Shown here one piece after another: positions 54,990-63,696 of a stretch of 64,000 nucleotides of DNA; the first letter of the stretch is position 1; each line of letters starts with the position of its first letter. The notes beneath the pieces are model-generated. The model had not been told where the DNA came from. It was given only the letters and a program-made list of their open reading frames with translations, and did no database searches. Source of the stretch: Ktedonobacterales bacterium. Its GTDB lineage: Bacteria > Chloroflexota > Ktedonobacteria > Ktedonobacterales > JADMIN01. The stretch is taken from assembly GCA_036391835.1 (NCBI GenBank), contig DASVZC010000093.1, positions 8,802-72,801 on the forward strand, in the 5' to 3' direction. Made by a program: the position numbers and the translations under genes.

Positions 54990-56560
54990 CAACAGGCGGA
55001 CGTTTCGTTGGCGTAGGCGAATGGCTAGCGCGACGTGAACAGCTTTCGCCAGACCACATCGGGCTGATCGACGTCGCTACAGGCGAGCGTCTCACCTATC
55101 GAACGCTGAATACGCGCGCCTGTGCGCTTGCCGCGTGGCTCAGCGAGCGCCACGGAGTTCGAATGGGCGACCGCGTGGCGATCCTTGCCGCCAACAGCCC
55201 AGAGTACCTGGATGCGTTCTTTGCCTGCGCTCTACTGGGAGCCATCCTGACGCCGCTGAACTGGCGGCTGACACGGCCTGAACTCATCGGTATCCTGAGA
55301 GATTGCGAGCCAGTAGCGCTGATCGCTGACGACGCCTATATCAGTGTCGCGACGGACGTGGCGACGGAAGCTGGGACACCGCGCCTACTGCGAATCGATA
55401 ATTTCCCTGGCGCCGACGCGGTGTTGGCCGCGCGGGCAGAGCCTTTCGAAACGCAGGACGGCGAAGAGATTGCCCTGATTCTCTATACGTCTGGCACGAC
55501 GGGGACACCCAAAGGCGCCATGCTCTCCCATCGGATGTTGACCTGGAATGCCATCAATACGCAAATTTCCTGGGGACTGCGCGAGGAGGACATCGCTCCA
55601 ACGTTCGCGCCATTCTTTCATGCCGGCGGCCTCAATGTGCTCACGACACCGATGTATCACCTCGGGGGGACCGTCGTGTTGCTGCGCGATACGCGCCCTG
55701 AAGCAATCCTCGCCGCTGTCGAGCGTGAGCGCTGCACACTCCTTTTCGCTGTGCCTACCGTGTTTCAGATGATGATGGAATCGTCCACATTTATGTCGAC
55801 TAATTTGTCGTCCGTGCGATTCTGCATCAGCGGCGGCGCTCCATGTCCACTGCCGATCATCGAAGGCTATTCGACGCGAGGGTTGGAGTTTCGCCAGGGG
55901 TATGGACTGACCGAAGTTGGTGTCAACTGCTTCGGTCTCGCGCCTGAGGATGCGACCCGCAAGGGTGGCTCGGTTGGGCGACCTGTCTTTCACTCGCGGG
56001 CGCGCATCGTGGATGACCACGACGACGATGTAGCTCTGGGAGCCGTCGGCGAACTCGCGCTTGCGGGGCCACATGTGTGTTCGGGTTACTGGCGTCGCCC
56101 GACCGCTACCGCTGAGGCGTATCGAAACGGCTGGTGGCACACGGGCGACCTCGTGCGCCAGGACGAGGAAGGCTACTATTTCATCGTCGGGCGTAAGAAG
56201 GACATGTACATCTCCGGCGGCGAGAACGTGTACCCGGCCGAGATTGAGGGTGTGCTGGCGACGCATGAGGGTATCGCTGACGTTGCGGTGCTGGGCCAGC
56301 CAGACCCGCGCTGGGGCGAGGTTGGACTGGCCATAGTCGCGCCACGCTTGCCAGATGCGCTGACTGAGCAGGACATCTTGAGCTACTGCGACGGTAGGCT
56401 GGCCCGCTTCAAGATCCCCAAGTCCGTTATCTTCGTTGATGCCCTGCCACGCAACGCGATGGGCAAAGTGGTCAAAGCGGAACTGTATGAGCGTTACGTT
56501 TCGACCGCTCACGACGCGCAGATGAGCGCGGCGACTGGGGAAGCAGACAAGGCGCGTTGA
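54986..56560 (+). CDS. AMP-dependent acyl/aryl-CoA ligase (ANL superfamily)
   Basis: Carries YTSGTTGTPKG, GYGLTE, WHTGDL and GRKKDMYISGGENVYPAEIE. It shares an ATGA overlap with the KAS III-like gene. Confidence 0.85.
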   Translation: MTTGGRFVGVGEWLARREQLSPDHIGLIDVATGERLTYRTLNTRACALAAWLSERHGVRMGDRVAILAANSPEYLDAFFACALLGAILTPLNWRLTRPELIGILRDCEPVALIADDAYISVATDVATEAGTPRLLRIDNFPGADAVLAARAEPFETQDGEEIALILYTSGTTGTPKGAMLSHRMLTWNAINTQISWGLREEDIAPTFAPFFHAGGLNVLTTPMYHLGGTVVLLRDTRPEAILAAVERERCTLLFAVPTVFQMMMESSTFMSTNLSSVRFCISGGAPCPLPIIEGYSTRGLEFRQGYGLTEVGVNCFGLAPEDATRKGGSVGRPVFHSRARIVDDHDDDVALGAVGELALAGPHVCSGYWRRPTATAEAYRNGWWHTGDLVRQDEEGYYFIVGRKKDMYISGGENVYPAEIEGVLATHEGIADVAVLGQPDPRWGEVGLAIVAPRLPDALTEQDILSYCDGRLARFKIPKSVIFVDALPRNAMGKVVKAELYERYVSTAHDAQMSAATGEADKAR

Positions 56561-56893: not shown

Positions 56894-58240
56894 TTACTGA
56901 TTATAGATAGCGGTTGGGCGCGCATCTACCAGACGACGCGCTTTGAGTTCGAATCGTGGCAGCGTTCCCGGTTCCATCAGTTCGATCAGGAAGTGCAGGT
57001 TTTCGTGCGCCTGAGCGAGCGCGCGGGCCAGTTCATCGCCAAGCGACGGCCACTCCGATTCACGTCCGGGTTTGAGCTCAACCTTGATGGTGATTTCATC
57101 GCGGATGTCATTGCGCCAGATATACATCTGGAACTCGTCGATTGCATCGTATTCACGGACGATTGCTTCGACCGCGCGAGGGTAGACATTCGTGCCGCGA
57201 ATGAGCTTCATATCGTCCCAGCGTCCACGGATGCCGCCATCATAGAGATCACCAGTGCGACCACACGTGCAGTTCGTATGTGGGACTTTGACCACCATAT
57301 CTTTGGTGCGGTAGCGCAGCACTGGAATGAACCCACGGCCAAACGACGTCACCACACGCTCCCCGAGTTCGCCATATCCCACTGGCTCGCCCGTCGCTGG
57401 ATTGATGACTTCCTCGATGTAGTGATCTTCGATGATGTGCGTGCCGCCCGGCTGCTTCTCGCACTCAAACATCATGATCGTGCCCACCTCGGTCATGCCA
57501 GCGGTGTCACCACACTTGGCGCCCCAGGCGTCTTCGAGTTGCTTCTTGACGGCTGGAATCGAACCGGCTGGTTCACCGGAGAGGATGAGTTTGTTGACCT
57601 TGCTGTCTTTCGCCAGGTCGTACCCCATCTCCGCCGCCTGCTGCCACAGGCGCAGCGCATAGGTAGGAGTGGAGGCGACGGTGGTGACCCCCATGTCCAT
57701 AATCATCTTGACGCGCGCTTCGGTCGTCTGAGCGCCACCGGGAATGACCAGAGCGCCGATCTTCTCGCAGCCGTAATGCAGACCCCAGAATCCGATGAAC
57801 TGCCCATAGCCGAAGGCGACATACACGGTATCCTGCGGGCGCACGCCGAACGCCCACAGGCCATAGCACCACATTTCGGCGATCCACTCCCAGTCCTTCA
57901 TGCTGTCGAGCACACGGATCGGAGTGCGCCCACTTGTGCCAGATGTCAGGTGATAGCGAATGGCGTGTTCTGGGGAAGTAGCGGGCAAGTGACCGAACAG
58001 TGGCTTCTCCGCAATGGACTCCATCCACGCCTCGCGTGTCATGAAGGGAATGCGGCGAATGTCGCTCAACGTCTTGAGTTGTTCGGGATGGAAACCTGCG
58101 GCATCCCACCTCGTGCGGTGAAACTCGCTATTCGCGTGCGCCCACTCCACAAGCCGCCGCAACTTGGTCAGTTGCAGCCGTTCGAGTTCTTCGCGCGGTA
58201 GCGTCTCGTTCTTTGGGTTCCAGTACGCGGACGAATCCAT
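56894..58240 (-). CDS. phenylacetate-CoA ligase (PaaK) family adenylating enzyme
   Basis: Carries TSGTSGRTPI, GGAQTTEARV, SGEPAG and the KDM..IRGTNVYP pattern. GAGGGGG precedes the ATG at 58240. Confidence 0.85.
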   Translation of the reverse strand: MDSSAYWNPKNETLPREELERLQLTKLRRLVEWAHANSEFHRTRWDAAGFHPEQLKTLSDIRRIPFMTREAWMESIAEKPLFGHLPATSPEHAIRYHLTSGTSGRTPIRVLDSMKDWEWIAEMWCYGLWAFGVRPQDTVYVAFGYGQFIGFWGLHYGCEKIGALVIPGGAQTTEARVKMIMDMGVTTVASTPTYALRLWQQAAEMGYDLAKDSKVNKLILSGEPAGSIPAVKKQLEDAWGAKCGDTAGMTEVGTIMMFECEKQPGGTHIIEDHYIEEVINPATGEPVGYGELGERVVTSFGRGFIPVLRYRTKDMVVKVPHTNCTCGRTGDLYDGGIRGRWDDMKLIRGTNVYPRAVEAIVREYDAIDEFQMYIWRNDIRDEITIKVELKPGRESEWPSLGDELARALAQAHENLHFLIELMEPGTLPRFELKARRLVDARPTAIYNQ

Positions 58241-58318
58241 GCTTACCCCCTCAATCAACATCGATTGGAGTACCGCTCCCGAGCCAGGTATGCGATTCCG
58301 CGAATGATGATGCGACGC

Positions 58319-59467
58319 TTACTCGCGACCAAGGAGCTCGCGCGCAATGATGATACGCTGAATGTTGCTCGCGCCCTCGTAGATCTGCATCCCTTTGATG
58401 TCCCGCAGGTAGCGCTCGACGGGATAGATATTCGAGTACCCGCGGCTGCCATGCAACGTGACCGCTTCATTCGCGGCGCGTGCAGCCACCTCAGTCGCAT
58501 AGAGCTTTGCGATAGATGTCTCCTTCGTGGCTGGCTGGCCCCGATCTTTCAGCCATGCCGCGTGGTATGTCAGCAATCGCGCCGCCTCGATCTCCGACGC
58601 CATGTCGGCAAGCGCCGCTTGTGTCATCTGAAAGTCGCCGAGTCGCTTGCCAAACTGATGCCGTTCTCGCGCAAAGGTGACACTGGCATCCAGACAAGCT
58701 TGCCCGACGCCGACCGCACCCGCAGCGACCCCGAGACGTCCACGATCCAAGCCGGACATCGCGATTTTGAAACCCTCGCCTTCCACGCCCATGAGCGCGC
58801 TCGCTGGAATTTGGCAGTGATCGAACGTGATATGCGCGTGGTCAGAGCCTCGATGACCCAGTTCTCGTCCAGGCATGGGCTCGCGTTGGAATCTCACCGT
58901 ATCGGTCTCGACGAGAAATGCGCTCACCCCTCGATGACGCATGCCTGGGTCTTTGGTCGCGAACACAATGGCAAGCTGTGCGACACCACCGTTGGTGATC
59001 CAGACCTTCTCGCCATTCAATTCGTATCCGTCTGTGTTCGCATGCGCCGTTGTCTGGATGCTGGCGGCGTCTGAGCCGGCATCGGGCTCAGTCAAGCAGT
59101 AGCAGCCGATCAGTTCGCCGCTTGCCAGACGTGGTAGGTAGCGTGAGCGTTGCTCGTCGCTGCCCCACTCGCGAACGCAAAGGGTGACTAGTCCCGCATG
59201 CACCGTGAGAAAACCGCGCACTGAGGAATCAACACGCCCCAGCTCTTCGGCGACCAGCGCGAAGCTGACATAGTCCATGCCGGAACCGCCATACTCCGCC
59301 TCCAATGGACCACCTAGCAATCCGAGTTCACCCATCCGCTTCACAAGCATGGGCGAGAAGACGCCCTGCTCATCGGACTCACGGGCCAGCGGGGCCACCT
59401 CGTCCTGCGCAAACTGGCGCGCCAGCGTTTGCCACTGCTTCTGCTCGGGTGAGAGTTCAAAATCCAT
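58319..59467 (-). CDS. acyl-CoA dehydrogenase
   Basis: Carries [16 protein letters not shown], and the catalytic-base region [16 protein letters not shown]. Confidence 0.9.
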
Positions 59468-59512: not shown

Positions 59513-59920
59513 CTAGTCGTCAGCGAGGACGGCAAAGCCTTCGATCTCGATCAGCGCTTCCGGTTGGAAGAACGCCGATACCTCGAAGAGCGCCAGCGCT
59601 GGATAGTAGTCATCGAAGTAGCGTTTCCAGACGGCTCCAAGCTCGCGATGTTTCGACACGTACTCGTTGCGGTCACGGACGAAGATGGTGAGCTTGACGA
59701 TATCCGTCATCTGTCCACCCGCTTCGTGCACGACAGCATGCAGGTTGTAGAGCACACGGTCGAGTTGCGCGACCACATCGCCCGGCGCGACGATCTTTCC
59801 ATTGGCATCGCTTGCATCCTGACCCGCCAGCCAAAGCGTTTTACCACCAGTGGTAACGATGCCATGGCTAAAGCCGCGCGGGCGGGCGAGCCCTGTTGGC
59901 GTGACAATACGTTTCTGCAT
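59513..59920 (-). CDS. RidA/YjgF family enamine/imine deaminase
   Basis: 135 aa when started at MQKRIVTP. The C-terminus LIEIEGFAV is typical of RidA. Confidence 0.8.
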   Translation of the reverse strand: MQKRIVTPTGLARPRGFSHGIVTTGGKTLWLAGQDASDANGKIVAPGDVVAQLDRVLYNLHAVVHEAGGQMTDIVKLTIFVRDRNEYVSKHRELGAVWKRYFDDYYPALALFEVSAFFQPEALIEIEGFAVLADD

Positions 59921-59925
59921 CTGAT

Positions 59926-60717
59926 TCACCGCCCCGTCCACTCTGGCTTGCGTTTCTCGGTGAATGCCTCGTAGAAGGCGCGATGGTCATCACCCAGGAG
60001 GAGCAACGCCTGCGCCTGCGCTTCCGCTTCGATCGCCGCGACGAAGTCCATGCCAAGTTCATTGTTCATCATGCGCTTGGTCATGCCAATCGCGAGGGAC
60101 GGACCCTTCGCCAGTCGAGCAGCCCAGGAGCGCGCCACGCTCATGAGTTCGTCATGCGGGGTGACGCGATTGACGAGGCCGTAGCGCTCGGCGGTTTGCG
60201 CGTCGATGGTGTCACCCAACAGTAGGAGTTCGCTGGCGCGTCCAAGGCCGACGATGCGCGGGAGCAGATAGCCAGCGCCCATATCAGCGCCCGTCAGCCC
60301 AACTTTGGTGAAGAGAAAGGCGAAGCGCGCACGTTCGGACGCGATACGTACATCGGAGGCGAGCGCCAGCACTGAGCCTGCGCCCGCTGTCATGCCATTG
60401 AGCGCCGCGATAATTGGCTTCTCGAGCAGGCGCATATGCTGTACTACTGCGCCAGTCATGCGCGTGAATTCGATGTGGCCCTTCAGGTCGCGCTTCAGCA
60501 ACTCGCCGATGATCTCTTGCACATCGCCGCCTGAGCAGAAGGCGTCTCCCGCGCCCGTCAGCACGACGACTTTCACGCTATCGTCGTAGCGCAGGTCATC
60601 AAACAGTTGACGGAGTTGCGCGTAGACCTCAAAGGTCAGCGCGTTGAGCACCTCAGGCCGATTGAATGTGAGCGTCGCGACACCGTCGCTTACCTCATAG
60701 AGAAAGTCGTAGGCCAA
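59926..60717 (-). CDS. enoyl-CoA hydratase/isomerase (crotonase) family
   Basis: Carries TLTFNRPEVLNAL, VVLTGAGDAFCSGGD and PIIAALNGMTAGAG. Confidence 0.9.
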   Translation of the reverse strand: MAYDFLYEVSDGVATLTFNRPEVLNALTFEVYAQLRQLFDDLRYDDSVKVVVLTGAGDAFCSGGDVQEIIGELLKRDLKGHIEFTRMTGAVVQHMRLLEKPIIAALNGMTAGAGSVLALASDVRIASERARFAFLFTKVGLTGADMGAGYLLPRIVGLGRASELLLLGDTIDAQTAERYGLVNRVTPHDELMSVARSWAARLAKGPSLAIGMTKRMMNNELGMDFVAAIEAEAQAQALLLLGDDHRAFYEAFTEKRKPEWTGR

Positions 60718-60769: not shown

Positions 60770-61564
60770 TCAATAGTTGACGGAGCCACCATCTACGTTG
60801 ATGGCCTGGCCGGTGATACCCGCGCTGGTATCCAGCGCCAGAAACACGGCAACCGACGCGACCTCCTCCGGCGTGATCAGGCGATACTGCGGGCTCGTTC
60901 GCTCCAGCGCCTGCCGCGCTTGTTCGGCCGTCATACTGGTGCGGGCCGTCATATTGGCGACGCTTGCCTCAGTCATCGGAGTATCGACATAGCCGGGACA
61001 AATGGCGTTGACAGTGATGCCGGACCCATTGAGTTCGACTGCCAGCGCACGTGTCAGCCCGAGCACGCCATGCTTCGAAGCCGTGTATGCGGCGATATAC
61101 TTCCCACCGACCTTGCCAGCGATAGAGGCGACAGTAATGACACGGCCAGCGCGCTGCTCGATCATCGCAGGAACGAATGCCTTGGTCACGTAATAGACGC
61201 TGGTGAGGTTAATAGCCAGCATCCGATGCCACAACTCATCGGGGTGGTTCGCGAACTTCGCGCTGCCCGCATTCCCCGCATTGTTCACGAGGATGTCCAG
61301 GCCGCCCCAGCCGTCAAGAACGTCGCGTGCGAGCCGCCCAGCGACGAAATCCGGATCAGTCACATCGCCCGCGATGGCGAGCGCGCGCCTACCCATGCCC
61401 TCGATCTCATCTCGCAGCGCCCCGAGGTCACGTTCGGAACGAGCGTTGATGGCCACATCCGCGCCTGCCTCCGCTAGCGCAAGCGCGATACTGCGTCCTA
61501 TACCTTTCGTTGCGCCGGTAACTACAGCGCGTTTGCCGCGCAACGGAGTCGCGAAATCGGACAT
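60770..61564 (-). CDS. SDR family oxidoreductase (FabG / 3-hydroxyacyl-CoA dehydrogenase-like)
   Basis: Carries VTGATKGIGR, NNAG, YTASKHG and PGYVDTPM. Confidence 0.85.
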   Translation of the reverse strand: MSDFATPLRGKRAVVTGATKGIGRSIALALAEAGADVAINARSERDLGALRDEIEGMGRRALAIAGDVTDPDFVAGRLARDVLDGWGGLDILVNNAGNAGSAKFANHPDELWHRMLAINLTSVYYVTKAFVPAMIEQRAGRVITVASIAGKVGGKYIAAYTASKHGVLGLTRALAVELNGSGITVNAICPGYVDTPMTEASVANMTARTSMTAEQARQALERTSPQYRLITPEEVASVAVFLALDTSAGITGQAINVDGGSVNY

Positions 61565-61569
61565 CTACG

Positions 61570-63696
61570 CTATCCTTTCACCTGCGGCGTCGCGTGGCGC
61601 GAACTCGGCGGCGTCATCAGAATGAGGTCAGCGCGCCCGCCAGCGAGCAACGTGTTCGCTTCGTTCGTCGTCGTGATATAGCCGCCAACCAGGGTCACCA
61701 TCCCTACCTCAGTGCGGATGCGCTCGGCAAGTGGCGCAAGGAAGGCTTTGCCATAGGGCAGGCTGGCTTCGGGGGTTGTCTGCCCAGCCATGGGCTGAAT
61801 CAGATCGCAACCTAGCGCCTTGAGCGACGCAGCAGTCGCCACCGCATCGTCCAGGGTGAGTCCACCTTTGACGCCGTCATGACAATTGAGCGCTACGCCA
61901 AGGGGCTTCTGTCGAGGCCAGACCTCGCGCACCGCGGCGAAGACCTCGAGCGGGAAACGCATGCGGTTCGCTAGCGACCCACCGAAGTCGTCTGTGCGTT
62001 GGTTGGTGAGTGGCGACAGAAAGCTCGCCAGTAGATACCCTTGCGCCATATGGAGCAACAGCATATCGAAACCGCGCGCGTCAGCAACGCTCGCCGCCGA
62101 GGTGAATTGCTCGATCACCGCACGCATGGCGTCGCGTGTAAGCTCACTCGGCGTCTGGCTGCGTGGCGTATACGGCAGCGCCGAGGCGGAGACGAGTGGC
62201 CATGCTCCCGTCACCAGCGGACGATCGAGCAGCGAGGCGCTGGCTGTTGGCGCTCGGGACGCGCCACGTCGACCCGCATGGTTGAGCACGGCGCACACCT
62301 TGATGGATGTCTCGTGCAGGGAATCGACCTGCGCACGCAAGGTGGCGCTGTGGTCTGCGTCATACAGTCCTGGCTGGTTGGGTGTGGCGCGCCCATCCGC
62401 TGAGACTGCCAGCGGGCCATATATCTCCAAGCCAGCGCCAGCCTGCGCTGTCCAGGTCCTTTCGGCAGACGGCTGTGTGACAATGCGGTTCGAGAGCGAC
62501 AAACCTCCAAGCGCTAACGAGGTAAACACTGGTGGCGGCGCGAAAGTGATCTGTTCCGTCTGTGAACCGCACGTAGCGAACGAGCGGTCTACCCACTCTA
62601 TGTACCGTGGATCGCGGAGGCGCAGATCATCGTAGGTGATGCGCTTGCTGCGCGTGAGCAGATTGAATGAGAACTGCGCGGACGGCAGCGTGGTAAACCG
62701 CTGCGTATGTTCGAAGTATCCCTGACTCTCTGCGGCAGCGCCCTGCAGTAGTTCTACTATCGGGCGGCGCGTCAACTCATATTCCGTTAGCGCTCGCTCC
62801 AAATCAGGATACTGCTCGATAGCGTTTGCGAGCGCGATGGCGTCTTCCATCGCCAGCTTAGTGCCTGAGCCGATAGAGAAATGCGCCGTGTGGGCTGCGT
62901 CACCGAGTAGGACGAGATTTCCGGTGTGCCAGTGGGCACATTTCAGGGTCGAGAAGTTGATCCACTTCGAATTATTGCTGTATAGGCGCGCCCCCCGTAG
63001 CTCATCGGCGAAGAGCCGCTCGCAGAATACGATGCTTTCCTGCTCGCTCGCCTGCTCGAGACCTGCACGCCTCCAAACATCCTCGGCGCACTCGACGATG
63101 AACGTGCTACGGTCGCCGCTGAATGGGTAGGAGTGGACCTGGAACAGGCCGTATTCGCTCTCTTTGAAGATGAATGTGAAAGCGTCGAGTGTTTTGTCCG
63201 CTCCAAGCCAGATATAACGTGCGGTTCCTGGTGAGATACGGGGGACGAAGGCGGCTTCGTGCGTGCGGCGGGCAAGGCTATTGACCCCGTCCGCGGCGAT
63301 CACGAGATCAGCCGGGGCGAGTGATTCCAGGCGTTCCACTTCAGTAGAGAATGCTAGCAGGACGCCTAATTCTCTGCAGCGCTCTTGTAGCGTCGTGAGC
63401 AAGACTTTACGCGCAAGGCCTGCAAAGACATGCCCGCTGCAGTGTATCAACTCGCCGCGATAGTAGGTGTCGATCGCGTCCCACAGCACGAAACGACTGG
63501 TGATGGCCTTGTAGGATTTGAAGTCGGCCTCCTGGAACGCCGCGAGCGTGCGGTCAGAGAACACGACTCCCCACCCATAGGTCGCGTCGGGCGGGTTGCG
63601 CTCCAGAATGCGGACGTGGTGGCTGGGGTTGGCTTTCTTCAGCAGGAGTCCGCAATATAAGCCCGCTGGCCCGGCGCCTAAGATGGTTATGTACAC
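61570..63696 (-). CDS. two-domain flavoenzyme: FAD aromatic-ring monooxygenase fused to an OYE-like NAD(P)H:flavin oxidoreductase (2-aminobenzoyl-CoA monooxygenase/reductase or salicylyl-CoA 5-hydroxylase type)
   Basis: The N-terminus is ILGAGPAGLYCGLLLKK...RILERNPPDATYGWGVVFSD, with ADGVNS and LLGDAAHTAHFSIGSGTKLAMEDA. The C-terminal half has LNHAGRR, HMAQGYLL.SFLSP.TN.RTD.FGG and a TIM-barrel OYE pattern. Confidence 0.8.
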   Translation of the reverse strand: MYITILGAGPAGLYCGLLLKKANPSHHVRILERNPPDATYGWGVVFSDRTLAAFQEADFKSYKAITSRFVLWDAIDTYYRGELIHCSGHVFAGLARKVLLTTLQERCRELGVLLAFSTEVERLESLAPADLVIAADGVNSLARRTHEAAFVPRISPGTARYIWLGADKTLDAFTFIFKESEYGLFQVHSYPFSGDRSTFIVECAEDVWRRAGLEQASEQESIVFCERLFADELRGARLYSNNSKWINFSTLKCAHWHTGNLVLLGDAAHTAHFSIGSGTKLAMEDAIALANAIEQYPDLERALTEYELTRRPIVELLQGAAAESQGYFEHTQRFTTLPSAQFSFNLLTRSKRITYDDLRLRDPRYIEWVDRSFATCGSQTEQITFAPPPVFTSLALGGLSLSNRIVTQPSAERTWTAQAGAGLEIYGPLAVSADGRATPNQPGLYDADHSATLRAQVDSLHETSIKVCAVLNHAGRRGASRAPTASASLLDRPLVTGAWPLVSASALPYTPRSQTPSELTRDAMRAVIEQFTSAASVADARGFDMLLLHMAQGYLLASFLSPLTNQRTDDFGGSLANRMRFPLEVFAAVREVWPRQKPLGVALNCHDGVKGGLTLDDAVATAASLKALGCDLIQPMAGQTTPEASLPYGKAFLAPLAERIRTEVGMVTLVGGYITTTNEANTLLAGGRADLILMTPPSSRHATPQVKG

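What the first reader, a model, noticed from the sequence alone, without database searches (positions are those of the whole stretch)
61570..63696. ACMR/SdgC-type monooxygenase-reductase fusion immediately followed by SDR, crotonase, RidA and an acyl-CoA dehydrogenase
The 708-aa ORF has two domains. The N-terminal domain is a group-A flavoprotein monooxygenase (GAGPAGL, ADGVNS, GDAAH...G.G...A.EDA). The C-terminal domain is Old-Yellow-Enzyme-like (LNHAGRR, HMAQGYLL.SFLSP.TN.RTD.FGG).

In the characterised 2-aminobenzoyl-CoA enzyme this pair hydroxylates the aryl-CoA ring and then reduces it to a non-aromatic CoA thioester. That thioester is subsequently handled by beta-oxidation-like steps.

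The downstream gene order (SDR, enoyl-CoA hydratase, RidA, acyl-CoA dehydrogenase) has small gaps or overlaps. The LLM and monooxygenase genes overlap by 10 nt, and the crotonase stop lies 5 nt before the RidA start. This order matches that logic and places a dedicated deaminase in the pathway.
Basis: partly seen in the sequence, partly recalled or inferred. Interest (0 to 1): 0.6.

Follow-up and report, generated by a model that had tools for sequence, protein, structure and literature searches.

The report
Anthraniloyl-CoA oxygenase with decayed reductase half
This soil-bacterium gene belongs to a known operon type for degrading anthranilate as a CoA thioester, but the reductase half of its two-part enzyme has lost its flavin-binding residues and is always paired with an extra luciferase-like oxidoreductase gene, which probably took over that step.

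Summary
ORF 61570..63696 (-) is one intact 708-aa protein with a FAD-monooxygenase half and an Old-Yellow-Enzyme (OYE)-like half. It sits in the operon LLM–oxygenase–SDR–crotonase–Rid–acyl-CoA dehydrogenase–PaaK-like CoA ligase, with the stated overlaps. The source is a Ktedonobacterales (Chloroflexota) MAG.

The gene set SDR, crotonase, ACAD, Rid and CoA ligase accompanies homologues in many phyla. It is the widespread anthraniloyl-CoA (abm-type) cluster, so the basic reading is ordinary.

The protein is not a canonical bifunctional enzyme. It scores 810 bits on NCBIfam NF006101, below the 1078 cutoff. It belongs to a monophyletic clade found in Chloroflexota, Actinomycetota and haloarchaea. 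In that clade the OYE half lacks residues invariant in 66 canonical homologues and in solved OYEs (Q100, R225, S259, Q276, R319, M24, Y27), and it ends before the last barrel helix.

Every member examined has an orthologous luciferase-like oxidoreductase gene directly upstream: 17 bacterial loci and 7 haloarchaeal plasmids. That gene overlaps the oxygenase start by 10 nt here.

My best reading is that the OYE half no longer binds FMN and the LLM, possibly F420H2-dependent, performs the ring reduction. This is an inference and has not been demonstrated. Verdict: new variant of a known kind, moderate interest.

The parts
63687..64000 (-). 3' part (104 codons) of a luciferase-like (LLM-class) oxidoreductase gene. 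The gene runs off the window end, and its stop overlaps the oxygenase start by 10 nt.
   Evidence: Translation and junction sequence. The fragment is 57-67% identical to the C-terminus of full-length (~290 aa) LLM genes sitting directly upstream of the oxygenase in L001-L009, L011, L013, L016, L023, L025, L081 and L083. The full-length orthologue matches Pfam Bac_luciferase. Its nearest NCBIfam family is TIGR03619, an F420-dependent LLM family, but the score is below cutoff.
62617..63696 (-). N-terminal half (aa 1-360) of the 708-aa protein: a group-A FAD monooxygenase domain that appears intact.
   Evidence: Pfam FAD_binding_3 at residues 4-315. PDB hit VioD 3c4a, E 5e-53, over residues 1-351. 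The GxGxxG, DG and GD motifs are invariant in alignment A1.
61570..62544 (-). C-terminal half (aa 385-708): an OYE-like TIM barrel that lacks the FMN-binding residues, most of helix alpha-1, and the C-terminal helix with its GR..DP motif.
   Evidence: Pfam Oxidored_FMN at residues 417-694. Alignment to TsOYE 3hf3. Residue table, TsOYE numbering: Q100V, H175Q, R225A, S259M, Q276L, G318T/R319P, M24S, Y27R. In the 120 closest homologues, M24, Y27, R225, S259, Q276 and R319 are retained in none. The AF2 model shows 8 strands, a 7-residue helix alpha-1 and no helix after strand 8.
60770..61564 (-). Short-chain dehydrogenase/reductase, 264 aa.
   Evidence: Pfam adh_short. Nearest NCBIfam family is the 3-hydroxybutyrate dehydrogenase subfamily, below cutoff. 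An orthologue follows the oxygenase in most loci of both clades.
59926..60717 (-). Crotonase-fold protein, 263 aa, lacking both catalytic glutamates of enoyl-CoA hydratase. Candidate ring-opening or isomerising enzyme.
   Evidence: Pfam ECH_1. Passes the NF006107 (PRK08258) equivalog, 384 > 330. Best PDB match is the uncharacterised 3g64, E 3e-83.
59513..59920 (-). Rid-family (YjgF/L-PSP) protein, 135 aa from the ATG start (142 aa from the GTG at 59941). Candidate enamine/imine deaminase for the CoA-ester intermediate.
   Evidence: Pfam Ribonuc_L-PSP. Below the RidA TIGR00004 cutoff, 64 < 106. The Arg105 equivalent is Leu here, and Met/Thr/Val/Ile in the other 44 cluster-linked Rid proteins.
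58319..59467 (-). Acyl-CoA dehydrogenase, 382 aa.
   Evidence: Three Pfam ACAD domains. No NCBIfam equivalog is reached. Conserved in clusters of both clades.
56894..58261 (-). PaaK-like (short, AMP-binding_C_2) aryl-CoA ligase, 455 aa. Last gene of the operon and candidate anthranilate-CoA ligase.
   Evidence: Pfam AMP-binding and AMP-binding_C_2. PaaK models score 261-275 bits against cutoffs of 646-700. Orthologues at 62-76% identity lie in the same position or nearby in L004, L006, L007, L009, L013, L070 and L081. Other clusters carry an ANL/benzoate-CoA-ligase type instead.
46291..52567 (.). Liv-type ABC transporter (two permeases, two ATPases, Peripla_BP_6 binding protein). It may be the uptake system, but the link is weak.
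   Evidence: Pfam hits. A Liv-type ABC transporter also flanks the haloarchaeal LLM-oxygenase cluster in L084.

Best explanation
**What it is.** The region is a seven-gene operon for aerobic degradation of anthranilate (2-aminobenzoate) as its CoA thioester. It lies in a Ktedonobacterales genome.

**Proposed sequence of steps (all inferred).**
1. The PaaK-like ligase makes 2-aminobenzoyl-CoA.
2. The N-terminal FAD domain of the 708-aa protein uses NAD(P)H and O2 to hydroxylate the ring para to the amino group.
3. The non-aromatic oxo-intermediate is reduced to 2-amino-5-oxocyclohex-1-ene-1-carbonyl-CoA.
4. The Rid protein hydrolyses this enamine, releasing ammonia.
5. The glutamate-less crotonase opens or isomerises the resulting beta-keto ring.
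6. The SDR and the acyl-CoA dehydrogenase carry out beta-oxidation-like steps.

**What differs from the characterised enzyme.** The fused OYE-like half no longer binds FMN in the OYE manner, so it is probably not the reductase. It survives as a scaffold or substrate-binding module. The reduction in step 3 is done instead by the translationally coupled luciferase-like oxidoreductase encoded immediately upstream, most likely using F420H2.

**Shown here.** Architecture, gene order, clade structure, residue losses and the LLM linkage.

**Inferred.** The substrate, every catalytic step, loss of FMN, and the role and cofactor of the LLM.
For: **Family and cluster.**
- Both domains lie in one ORF. 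The NF006101 match has E 2e-243.
- JGI names the homologues anthraniloyl-CoA monooxygenase.
- The SDR, ECH, Rid, ACAD and ligase genes accompany the homologue in Betaproteobacteria, Streptomyces, Chloroflexota, Gemmatimonadota and haloarchaea.
- The Rid protein makes sense only for an amino-substituted substrate.

**Decay of the OYE half.**
- The YqjM FMN-binding set is listed in PMC4002455.
- In 66 canonical homologues, M24, Y27, Q100, H172, H175, Y177, S259, Q276, R319 and P325 are invariant, and R225 is present in 65 of 66.
- The window protein has S, R, V, H, Q, Y, M, L, P, a gap and A at those positions.
- Among the 120 closest homologues, none retain R225, S259, Q276, R319, M24 or Y27.
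- The C-terminal 45-70 aa, including the 'ARPHLxDP' motif, are absent.
- The clade is monophyletic in NJ trees of both halves. The identity ratio of the C half to the N half is 0.88, against 1.12 in the canonical clade.
- The equivalog cutoff is passed by 6 of 6 canonical proteins tested and failed by the window protein and 4 of 4 clade members tested.

**Linkage to the LLM.**
- An orthologous LLM (54-76% identical) lies directly upstream in 14 of 14 clade loci, in L081 and L083, and in the window.
- It is also present in 7 of 7 haloarchaeal plasmids carrying the truncated type: coordinates, annotation, residues.
- About 310 other plasmids carry a homologue of the oxygenase, and the ones examined or listed are of the canonical type. 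The LLM search at E<=1e-20 returned only 13 plasmid records, all from haloarchaea or Actinomycetota.
- The downstream genes are orthologous in both clades. The same intermediate is therefore needed, and the LLM is the only clade-specific extra gene.

**F420.**
- The nearest NCBIfam family is TIGR03619.
- The host range is Chloroflexota, Actinomycetota and Halobacteria. F420 or its enzymes are reported in all three, and LLM-fold hydride transferases include a picrate ring reductase (PMC8498797).
Against: - No biochemistry exists for any clade member.
- The OYE half still keeps H172 and Y177, and its members remain about 52% identical to one another. It is under selection and could bind a flavin in a new way.
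- The LLM cofactor is undecided:
  - It scores below every NCBIfam cutoff, and only its N-terminal half matches TIGR03619.
  - The PDB profile search and Foldseek rank FMN-dependent monooxygenases (RutA, MsuD) level with F420 enzymes.
  - The LLM model is poor, with pLDDT 64.
- Two canonical loci (L064, L017) also have an adjacent, different LLM, so an LLM next to this enzyme need not mean replacement.
- No F420 biosynthesis gene lies in the 64-kb window.
- I could not obtain the sequences of the characterised AbmA and SdgC. Their placement in the canonical clade rests on the NCBIfam model name and on an Arthrobacter relative (PMC3534580).
Confidence: 0.45

Rival explanations
1. First reader's reading. 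The protein is a fully functional bifunctional 2-aminobenzoyl-CoA monooxygenase/reductase. The OYE-like half still binds FMN, using a remodelled pocket, and reduces the hydroxylated ring with NADH. The LLM does an unrelated or accessory job.
For: - The architecture and the strong family match.
- The TIM barrel is predicted intact, with 8 strands.
- H172 and Y177 are retained, and the HAGRRG and GYLLASFLSP motifs are conserved.
- The half is under purifying selection.
- Clade-specific invariant residues such as G638-Q639-T640 could form a new pocket.
- Two canonical enzymes also have an LLM neighbour.
Against: - Eight of eleven conserved YqjM FMN contacts are substituted, including the Arg and Gln that hold the isoalloxazine and the Ser, Gln and Arg that hold the ribityl phosphate. 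These residues are invariant in 66 canonical homologues.
- The C-terminal segment is missing.
- The protein scores below the equivalog cutoff.
- The strict co-occurrence with the LLM would be unexplained.
Confidence: 0.2
2. Hydroxylase-only enzyme plus an oxygenase partner. The 708-aa protein merely makes 5-hydroxy-2-aminobenzoyl-CoA, in the way SdgC makes gentisyl-CoA. The LLM is an FMNH2/O2-dependent monooxygenase that performs a second oxygenation, or a Baeyer-Villiger-type ring attack. The OYE-like half is either inert or serves as its flavin reductase.
For: - FMN-dependent LLM monooxygenases (RutA, MsuD) are the top or joint-top sequence and structure matches.
- ACMR is reported to release 5-hydroxyanthraniloyl-CoA when NADH is limiting (PMC3534580).
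- No separate flavin reductase gene is in the operon, so the OYE-like half could supply one.
- A 52%-identical LLM paralogue sits in a Streptomyces type II polyketide cluster.
Against: - The downstream SDR, crotonase, Rid and ACAD are orthologues of those in canonical clusters. This argues for the same reduced, non-aromatic intermediate.
- The LLM is short (~290 aa), like hydride-transferase LLMs, and lacks the insertions of SsuD/RutA-type oxygenases.
- A flavin-reductase role for an OYE domain that has lost its flavin contacts is hard to picture.
- The host range matches F420 producers.
Confidence: 0.2
3. Different substrate. The operon degrades another aryl-CoA (salicylyl-CoA as for SdgC, or a substituted aminobenzoyl- or phenylacetyl-type CoA ester). 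The PaaK-like ligase reflects that different substrate.
For: - The NCBIfam model is named for salicylyl-CoA 5-hydroxylase.
- The ligase is of the PaaK type rather than the benzoate/anthranilate-CoA ligase type.
- No kynurenine-pathway gene is in the window.
Against: - The Rid-family deaminase is conserved in the cluster.
- No gentisate dioxygenase or maleylpyruvate genes lie nearby.
- The same clade uses benzoate-CoA-ligase-type ligases in other genomes.
- The PaaK-like family includes aminobenzoate-activating BagE/FevW.
- A PF04199 cyclase (kynurenine-formamidase family) lies near the cluster in L083.
Confidence: 0.1

Closest known systems
2-Aminobenzoyl-CoA monooxygenase/reductase (ACMR, AbmA; EC 1.14.13.40) and the abm cluster of Azoarcus evansii
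   Same: - The same two-domain fusion: a group-A FAD monooxygenase followed by an OYE-like barrel.
- The same companion genes: CoA ligase, crotonase, acyl-CoA dehydrogenase, SDR and Rid, as annotated in the Ralstonia cluster.
- The same presumed substrate and product (PMC4539516; PMC3534580).
   Different: - The window protein is 43-48% identical to canonical members and fails the equivalog cutoff.
- It lacks the FMN-contacting residues and the C-terminal 45-70 aa of the OYE half.
- It is coupled to an upstream LLM gene.
- Its cluster uses a PaaK-like ligase.
SdgC, salicylyl-CoA 5-hydroxylase of Streptomyces sp. WA46 (namesake of NCBIfam NF006101)
   Same: It belongs to the same superfamily and has the same architecture. 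It is a precedent for a family member whose physiological output is only the hydroxylated aromatic CoA ester.
   Different: The sdg pathway continues through gentisate ring cleavage (my own knowledge, not checked here). This window has no dioxygenase. It carries the beta-oxidation-like genes and the Rid gene instead. Streptomyces homologues keep the full OYE residue set.
Thermophilic-like Old Yellow Enzymes (YqjM, TsOYE/CrS 3hf3, XenA)
   Same: These are the best structural relatives of the C-terminal half (E 1e-53). The shared features are the TIM barrel, the HAGR motif, the first histidine of the His pair, and the Tyr proton donor.
   Different: - Lost residues: Q100, R225, S259, Q276, R319, M24, Y27.
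- The second histidine is Gln.
- Helix alpha-1 is shortened.
- The last helix is absent.
F420-dependent luciferase-like hydride transferases (LLHT; for example the TIGR03619 Rv2161c family, the picrate hydride transferase Fht/Npd, Mer, Fgd)
   Same: - The upstream LLM has the same fold and a similar short length.
- TIGR03619 is its nearest named family.
- The family contains an enzyme that transfers hydride to an aromatic ring (PMC8498797).
- The host range matches F420 producers.
   Different: - It scores below every family cutoff, and only its N-terminal half matches TIGR03619.
- FMN-dependent LLMs score equally well in PDB searches.
- No cofactor evidence exists.
RidA (YjgF/TdcF) enamine/imine deaminases
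   Same: Same fold and trimer-type family (Pfam PF01042). A plausible hydrolytic deamination of an enamine.
   Different: It lacks the carboxylate-binding Arg105 (Leu here; Met in most cluster-linked copies). It scores below the RidA model cutoff. Its substrate would be a CoA thioester rather than a 2-imino acid.

Membership tests
Bifunctional ACMR/SdgC (NCBIfam NF006101, EC 1.14.13.40) | FAD monooxygenase and OYE-like domains in a single polypeptide | tested here: met
   Pfam FAD_binding_3 at 4-315 and Oxidored_FMN at 417-694 in one 708-aa ORF. All 120 listed homologues have the same architecture.
Bifunctional ACMR/SdgC (NCBIfam NF006101, EC 1.14.13.40) | Score at or above the curated equivalog cutoff (1078 bits), with full-length match to the 768-position profile | tested here: not met
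   The window protein scores 810 bits and matches profile positions 1-719. Four clade relatives score 763-949, and six canonical proteins score 1162-1410.
Bifunctional ACMR/SdgC (NCBIfam NF006101, EC 1.14.13.40) | Intact group-A monooxygenase motifs (GxGxxG, DG, GD) | tested here: met
   GAGPAGL, ADGVNS and GDAAHTAHFSIGSGTKLAMEDA are present and invariant in alignment A1.
Bifunctional ACMR/SdgC (NCBIfam NF006101, EC 1.14.13.40) | FMN-binding reductase half (the enzyme contains FMN as well as FAD) | tested here: not met
   Sequence test only. The protein keeps 2 of 11 OYE residues that are invariant in 65 of 66 canonical homologues, and the C-terminal segment is missing. Flavin content itself cannot be tested with these tools.
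Bifunctional ACMR/SdgC (NCBIfam NF006101, EC 1.14.13.40) | Clustering with an aryl-CoA ligase and beta-oxidation-like genes | tested here: met
   SDR, crotonase, Rid, ACAD and ligase lie directly downstream. The same set is present in 40+ loci of both clades.
Bifunctional ACMR/SdgC (NCBIfam NF006101, EC 1.14.13.40) | Hydroxylation plus reduction of 2-aminobenzoyl-CoA with 2 NADH and 1 O2 | not testable with these tools
   This needs an enzyme assay.
Old Yellow Enzyme family (Pfam PF00724) | Pfam gathering threshold | tested here: met
   116 bits against a threshold of 27.
Old Yellow Enzyme family (Pfam PF00724) | Conserved FMN contacts (YqjM P24, C26, A60, Q102, H164, H167, R215, S249, Q265, G284, R308) and substrate/proton residues (Y28, H164, H167, Y169) | tested here: not met
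   Retained: P, H164-equivalent, G284-equivalent and Y169-equivalent. Replaced: C->A, A->P, Q->V, H167->Q, R215->A, S->M, Q->L, R308->P, Y28->R. The residue list comes from PMC4002455.
RidA proper (NCBIfam TIGR00004) | Score above cutoff and the catalytic Arg105 | tested here: not met
   64 bits against a cutoff of 106. The Arg105 position is Leu, and none of the 45 cluster-linked Rid proteins has Arg there.
Rid superfamily (Pfam PF01042) | Pfam gathering threshold | tested here: met
   77 bits against a threshold of 27.
Classical enoyl-CoA hydratase | Two catalytic glutamates (rat E144, E164) | tested here: not met
   BLASTP alignment to a rat ECH fragment places V116 and F136 at those positions.
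Crotonase NF006107 (PRK08258) equivalog | Score above the curated cutoff | tested here: met
   384 bits against a cutoff of 330. The family has no assigned reaction.
F420-dependent LLM class (TIGR03619 and relatives) | Score above a family cutoff | tested here: not met
   Full-length orthologues score 98-138 bits against a cutoff of 166.9. The LLMs of L064 and L017 pass with 240-254 bits.
F420-dependent LLM class (TIGR03619 and relatives) | Binding of F420 rather than FMN | tested here: inconclusive
   The PDB profile search and Foldseek intermix FMN and F420 enzymes. Only the host range points to F420.
Phenylacetate-CoA ligase PaaK | Score above the equivalog cutoff | tested here: not met
   261-275 bits against cutoffs of 646-700. 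It shares the PaaK fold family (AMP-binding_C_2) but is not PaaK.

The most novel reading that the evidence does not exclude
In three lineages where F420 or its enzymes are reported (Chloroflexota, Actinomycetota, haloarchaea), the FMN/OYE reductase module of the aerobic anthraniloyl-CoA dearomatising enzyme has become a flavin-less pseudo-domain. Its function has passed to a dedicated, translationally coupled luciferase-like F420H2-dependent hydride transferase. This would be a natural non-orthologous replacement of one half of a fused two-flavin enzyme. It would also be the first F420-dependent step in aerobic aryl-CoA ring dearomatisation.
Probability: 0.35. Interest if true: 0.7.

Novelty: new variant of a known kind. 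Interest (0 to 1): 0.5.

Why it matters
**The pathway is still open.** The aerobic anthraniloyl-CoA route is one of the few 'hybrid' aromatic pathways whose steps after the first two enzymes have never been worked out. GapMind's authors left it out in 2022 for lack of knowledge. The conserved companion set defined here gives concrete candidates for those missing steps. The set is a Rid protein without the RidA arginine, a crotonase without the hydratase glutamates, an SDR and an ACAD.

**The variant clade may be a natural experiment.** If the reading is right, a fused two-flavin enzyme lost one cofactor site and outsourced that half-reaction to a separate oxidoreductase, possibly one that uses F420. 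That would extend the known chemistry of luciferase-like hydride transferases to ring dearomatisation of CoA esters. It would also supply a pseudo-OYE domain whose remaining role (scaffold, substrate handover) can be studied.

**Annotation.** Current pipelines label the clade only as 'FAD-dependent monooxygenase' and 'LLM class flavin-dependent oxidoreductase'. The pathway therefore goes unnoticed in Ktedonobacteria, many Actinomycetota and haloarchaea.

Tried and rejected
- **Exact-sequence look-up.** Looking up the 708-aa protein and its identical database copy P0001 found no contig on record. I took the context from relatives instead.
- **Original abm cluster paper.** Schühle et al. 2001 is not held in the library. 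Whether that paper already listed a Rid gene could not be checked. An annotated Ralstonia cluster served as the canonical reference.
- **LLM cofactor.** Three approaches were inconclusive:
  - NCBIfam scores.
  - An alignment profile searched against the PDB.
  - An AlphaFold model (pLDDT 64) followed by Foldseek.
- **F420 biosynthesis genes.** A Pfam survey of about 45 window ORFs found none. This says little about the rest of the genome.
- **Promoter and terminator scan.** The scan at the 3' end of the operon found nothing.
- **Literature.** Full-text searches linking F420 or luciferase-like enzymes to (2-)aminobenzoyl/anthraniloyl-CoA returned nothing. A search combining Old Yellow Enzyme, pseudoenzyme and FMN also returned nothing.
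- **Rejected: two genes joined by an error.** There is no stop or frameshift, and thousands of homologues have the same fusion.
- **Rejected: the window clade represents the ancestral state.** Free-standing OYEs share the residues of the canonical clade, so the window clade is the derived, lossy state.

Full report
**Observation**

The window carries, on the minus strand, an uninterrupted 708-codon ORF at 61570..63696. It starts with GTG, and a GAGGTG motif lies 8 nt upstream. Pfam places a group-A flavoprotein monooxygenase domain (FAD_binding_3, residues 4-315) and an Old-Yellow-Enzyme-type domain (Oxidored_FMN, residues 417-694) in this one protein.

Solved structures match in the same two blocks. 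VioD matches the first half. Thermophilic-like OYEs such as Thermus chromate reductase and XenA match the second half.

The best NCBIfam model is NF006101, 'bifunctional salicylyl-CoA 5-hydroxylase/oxidoreductase', at E 2e-243.

The genes that follow on the same strand are:
- an SDR at 60770..61564
- a crotonase at 59926..60717
- a Rid-family protein at 59513..59920
- an acyl-CoA dehydrogenase at 58319..59467

The upstream ORF runs off the window. Its TAA stop overlaps the GTG of the big ORF by 10 nt.

**Source and size of the family**

An identical protein is on record from a Ktedonobacterales MAG. All 120 listed hits have both domains, and JGI names many of them anthraniloyl-CoA monooxygenase. 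The fusion is real and common.

**Context in other genomes**

I fetched 80 genomic loci encoding relatives. I then searched their ORFs with the window's proteins. Homologues of the SDR, crotonase, ACAD, Rid protein and a CoA ligase accompany the fusion gene in:
- Burkholderiales
- Streptomyces
- Solirubrobacterales
- Gemmatimonadota
- Chloroflexota
- haloarchaeal megaplasmids

An annotated Ralstonia cluster reads: bifunctional enzyme, SDR, MarR, enoyl-CoA hydratase, ACAD, AMP-binding ligase, thioesterase, RidA family protein.

It is the abm-type aerobic anthranilate pathway described for Azoarcus evansii (PMC4539516; PMC3534580). The steps after the first two enzymes remain uncharacterised. 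GapMind's authors omitted the pathway for lack of knowledge (PMC9007349).

**Two clades**

Aligning the 80 homologues with the window protein shows a sharp split.

- **Canonical clade, 66 proteins.** These come from Proteobacteria, Streptomyces, Myxococcota and others, and are 43-48% identical to the window protein. They carry the OYE hallmarks 'SPM(C/A/D)xYS' and 'H(C/M)AHGYLL', a C-terminal 'ARPHLxDPxWT', and a further tail.
- **Window clade, 15 proteins.** These are the window protein plus L001-L009, L011, L013, L016, L023 and L025, all from Chloroflexota or Actinomycetota. They lack the first motif and have a variable deletion where helix alpha-1 should be. Their His pair is variable (HMAQ, NFAH, DCAR, DAAT, DLAD and others). 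They stop a few residues after strand 8.

I added Thermus OYE (sequence taken) and read off the positions equivalent to the FMN- and substrate-binding residues of YqjM listed in PMC4002455.

| Position (TsOYE numbering) | Canonical clade (n = 66) | Window protein |
|---|---|---|
| M24 | invariant | S |
| Y27 | invariant | R |
| Q100 | invariant | V |
| H172 | invariant | H |
| H175 | invariant | Q |
| Y177 | invariant | Y |
| R225 | 65 of 66 | A |
| S259 | invariant | M |
| Q276 | invariant | L |
| R319 | invariant | P |
| P325 | invariant | gap |

Among the 120 closest database homologues, none keeps M24, Y27, R225, S259, Q276 or R319. By contrast, H172, H175 and Y177 are kept in 108, 91 and 115 of them.

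Further tests agree with the split:
- The clade is monophyletic in neighbour-joining trees of either half.
- Its C-terminal half evolves faster relative to its N-terminal half than in canonical proteins. The identity ratio is 0.88 against 1.12.
- The curated NF006101 cutoff of 1078 bits separates the two groups. Six canonical proteins score 1162-1410. Four clade members score 763-949, and the window protein scores 810.
- An AlphaFold model (mean pLDDT 78) keeps the eight-stranded barrel. It shows only a seven-residue first helix and nothing after strand 8.

Free-standing OYEs share the canonical residues, so the window clade is the derived state.

**The partner gene**

The only gene specific to the window clade is the luciferase-like (LLM) oxidoreductase directly upstream.

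- With a full-length copy as query, an orthologue (54-76% identical) lies immediately upstream in all 14 clade loci. It usually overlaps the oxygenase start.
- The same holds in two further contigs, L081 and L083.
- L081 encodes the closest available relative (71% identity). There the LLM is the first gene of the operon LLM–oxygenase–SDR–crotonase–Rid–ACAD–PaaK-like ligase.
- A tblastn search of 72,556 plasmids found the truncated type in seven haloarchaeal megaplasmids. PGAP annotates it as 'FAD-dependent monooxygenase' in six of them; the seventh record carries no annotation.
- A separate search with the LLM found its orthologue (57-60% identical) in exactly those seven records, adjacent to the oxygenase.
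- The Natronococcus protein shows the same residue losses and truncation.
- About 310 other plasmids carry a homologue of the oxygenase. The ones examined or listed are of the canonical type, and the LLM search (E <= 1e-20) returned only 13 records, all from haloarchaea or Actinomycetota.

There are two exceptions in the other direction. Canonical enzymes in L064 (Chloroflexota) and L017 (Binatia) sit next to a different LLM, a genuine TIGR03619 member only about 30% identical to the clade's LLM.

**What the LLM is**

It is about 290 aa long and highly conserved (77-88% identity among the 120 listed database clusters). Its nearest NCBIfam family is TIGR03619, 'F420-dependent LLM class oxidoreductase'. 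The score is below cutoff, and often only the N-terminal half matches.

Sequence-profile and fold searches of the PDB rank FMN-dependent oxygenases (RutA, MsuD) level with F420-dependent enzymes (KvPepI, Mer). The LLM model is poor. The cofactor is therefore undecided.

The circumstantial pointer to F420 is the host range: Chloroflexota, Actinomycetota and Halobacteria. F420 production is confirmed in Actinobacteria and Chloroflexi. F420-dependent enzymes are listed for Halobacteriales. Luciferase-like hydride transferases are described as widespread in F420 producers, and they include a picrate reductase that transfers hydride to an aromatic ring (PMC8498797). A 52%-identical paralogue lies in a Streptomyces type II polyketide cluster.

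**The other enzymes**

- **Rid protein.** It scores below the RidA model (64 vs 106 bits). It has Leu where RidA has the carboxylate-binding Arg105. None of the 45 cluster-linked Rid proteins keeps the Arg, and 36 have Met. This fits a substrate that is a CoA thioester enamine rather than a 2-imino acid.
- **Crotonase.** It passes the PRK08258 equivalog. Its closest structure is the uncharacterised 3g64. It is therefore unlikely to be a simple hydratase.
- **Possible crotonase role.** A ring-opening role like that of BadI on 2-ketocyclohexanecarboxyl-CoA is plausible. This comes from my own knowledge and is inference only.
- **Ligase.** It is PaaK-like but far below the PaaK cutoffs. Other members of the same clade use benzoate-CoA-ligase-type enzymes.

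**Interpretation**

Well supported: the operon is a member of the widespread anthraniloyl-CoA degradation clusters, and the 708-aa protein is its ring-hydroxylating enzyme.

The new point is that its OYE-like half has lost nearly every residue that holds FMN in OYEs and in canonical family members, while the downstream enzymes are unchanged. The pathway should therefore still need the reduced, non-aromatic intermediate. The only clade-specific gene, the coupled LLM, is the parsimonious candidate for the reductase.

I put this at about 0.45 for the full statement and about 0.35 for the F420-specific version. Three rivals remain open:
- a remodelled but working FMN site
- a hydroxylase-only enzyme with an oxygenase-type LLM
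- a different substrate

The OYE-like half stays about 52% identical within the clade and often keeps the His-His-Tyr triad, which is unexplained. It still does something, perhaps substrate binding or docking of the partner.

**Verdict**

As written, the finding is an ordinary, correctly recognised member of a known pathway cluster. On inspection it represents a distinct, previously unremarked variant of that system, in which one half of the fused enzyme has decayed and a partner gene has been recruited. Verdict: new variant of a known kind, with moderate interest.

Noticed in passing
window 46291..48225 (-): A single 644-aa ORF joins an ABC-transporter ATPase domain (residues 46-191) to an alpha/beta-hydrolase domain (residues 319-632). 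It sits inside a Liv-type ABC transporter operon. This is either an unusual fusion or two genes read as one.
   Followed up: no
window 48131..52567: A Liv-type ABC transporter (ATPase, two permeases, divergent Peripla_BP_6 binding protein) lies close to the operon. A similar transporter flanks the haloarchaeal cluster in L084, so it may import the aromatic acid.
   Followed up: partly
window 52700..56560 (+): Three genes converge on the operon: an alpha/beta hydrolase (412 aa), a KAS III-like condensing enzyme (372 aa), and an ANL acyl-CoA ligase (531 aa). The ligase's nearest family is o-succinylbenzoate-CoA ligase, below cutoff. Their relation to the anthranilate operon is unknown.
   Followed up: no
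L084 (Natronococcus sp. CG52 plasmid) 8109-11169; L085 (Haladaptatus caseinilyticus plasmid) 6126-9151: Haloarchaeal megaplasmids carry the same pair of LLM plus truncated-OYE oxygenase, with Rid, SDR, ACAD, MaoC and ligase genes nearby. The LLM is 59% identical to the Ktedonobacterial one, which suggests transfer between domains.
   Followed up: yes
L064 7761-8696 and L017 2368-3297: Two canonical (full-OYE) enzymes also have an adjacent LLM. It is a genuine TIGR03619 F420-family member, only ~30% identical to the clade's LLM. L064 has no SDR within 7 kb. This may be an intermediate state or a different role for the LLM.
   Followed up: partly
L083 5678-6457 and 13016-18616: In this relative the cluster is interrupted by a methyltransferase, an Rce1-like protease and a cytochrome P450. 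A PF04199 cyclase (the kynurenine-formamidase family) lies upstream.
   Followed up: no
L087 (Streptomyces sp. NBC_01591 plasmid) 8001-8849: A 52%-identical paralogue of the LLM sits between an acyl-CoA dehydrogenase and the KS-alpha/CLF genes of a type II polyketide cluster, not next to an ACMR-type gene.
   Followed up: no
window 59926..60717 (-): The crotonase lacks both catalytic glutamates of enoyl-CoA hydratase (V116, F136). Its closest solved structure, 3g64, has no assigned function.
   Followed up: partly
window 12275..15388 (+): A 1037-aa regulator with BTAD, AAA_16 and TPR domains, of the large ATP-binding SARP-like type.
   Followed up: no
window 7047..8303 (-), 16240..17547 (-), 22709..23959 (-), 27213..28547 (-), 39393..40436 (+), 40433..41362 (-): Six long ORFs (309-444 aa) have no Pfam match at E<=1e-5 or 1e-6. 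Some may be non-coding shadow ORFs in this 60% GC sequence.
   Followed up: no
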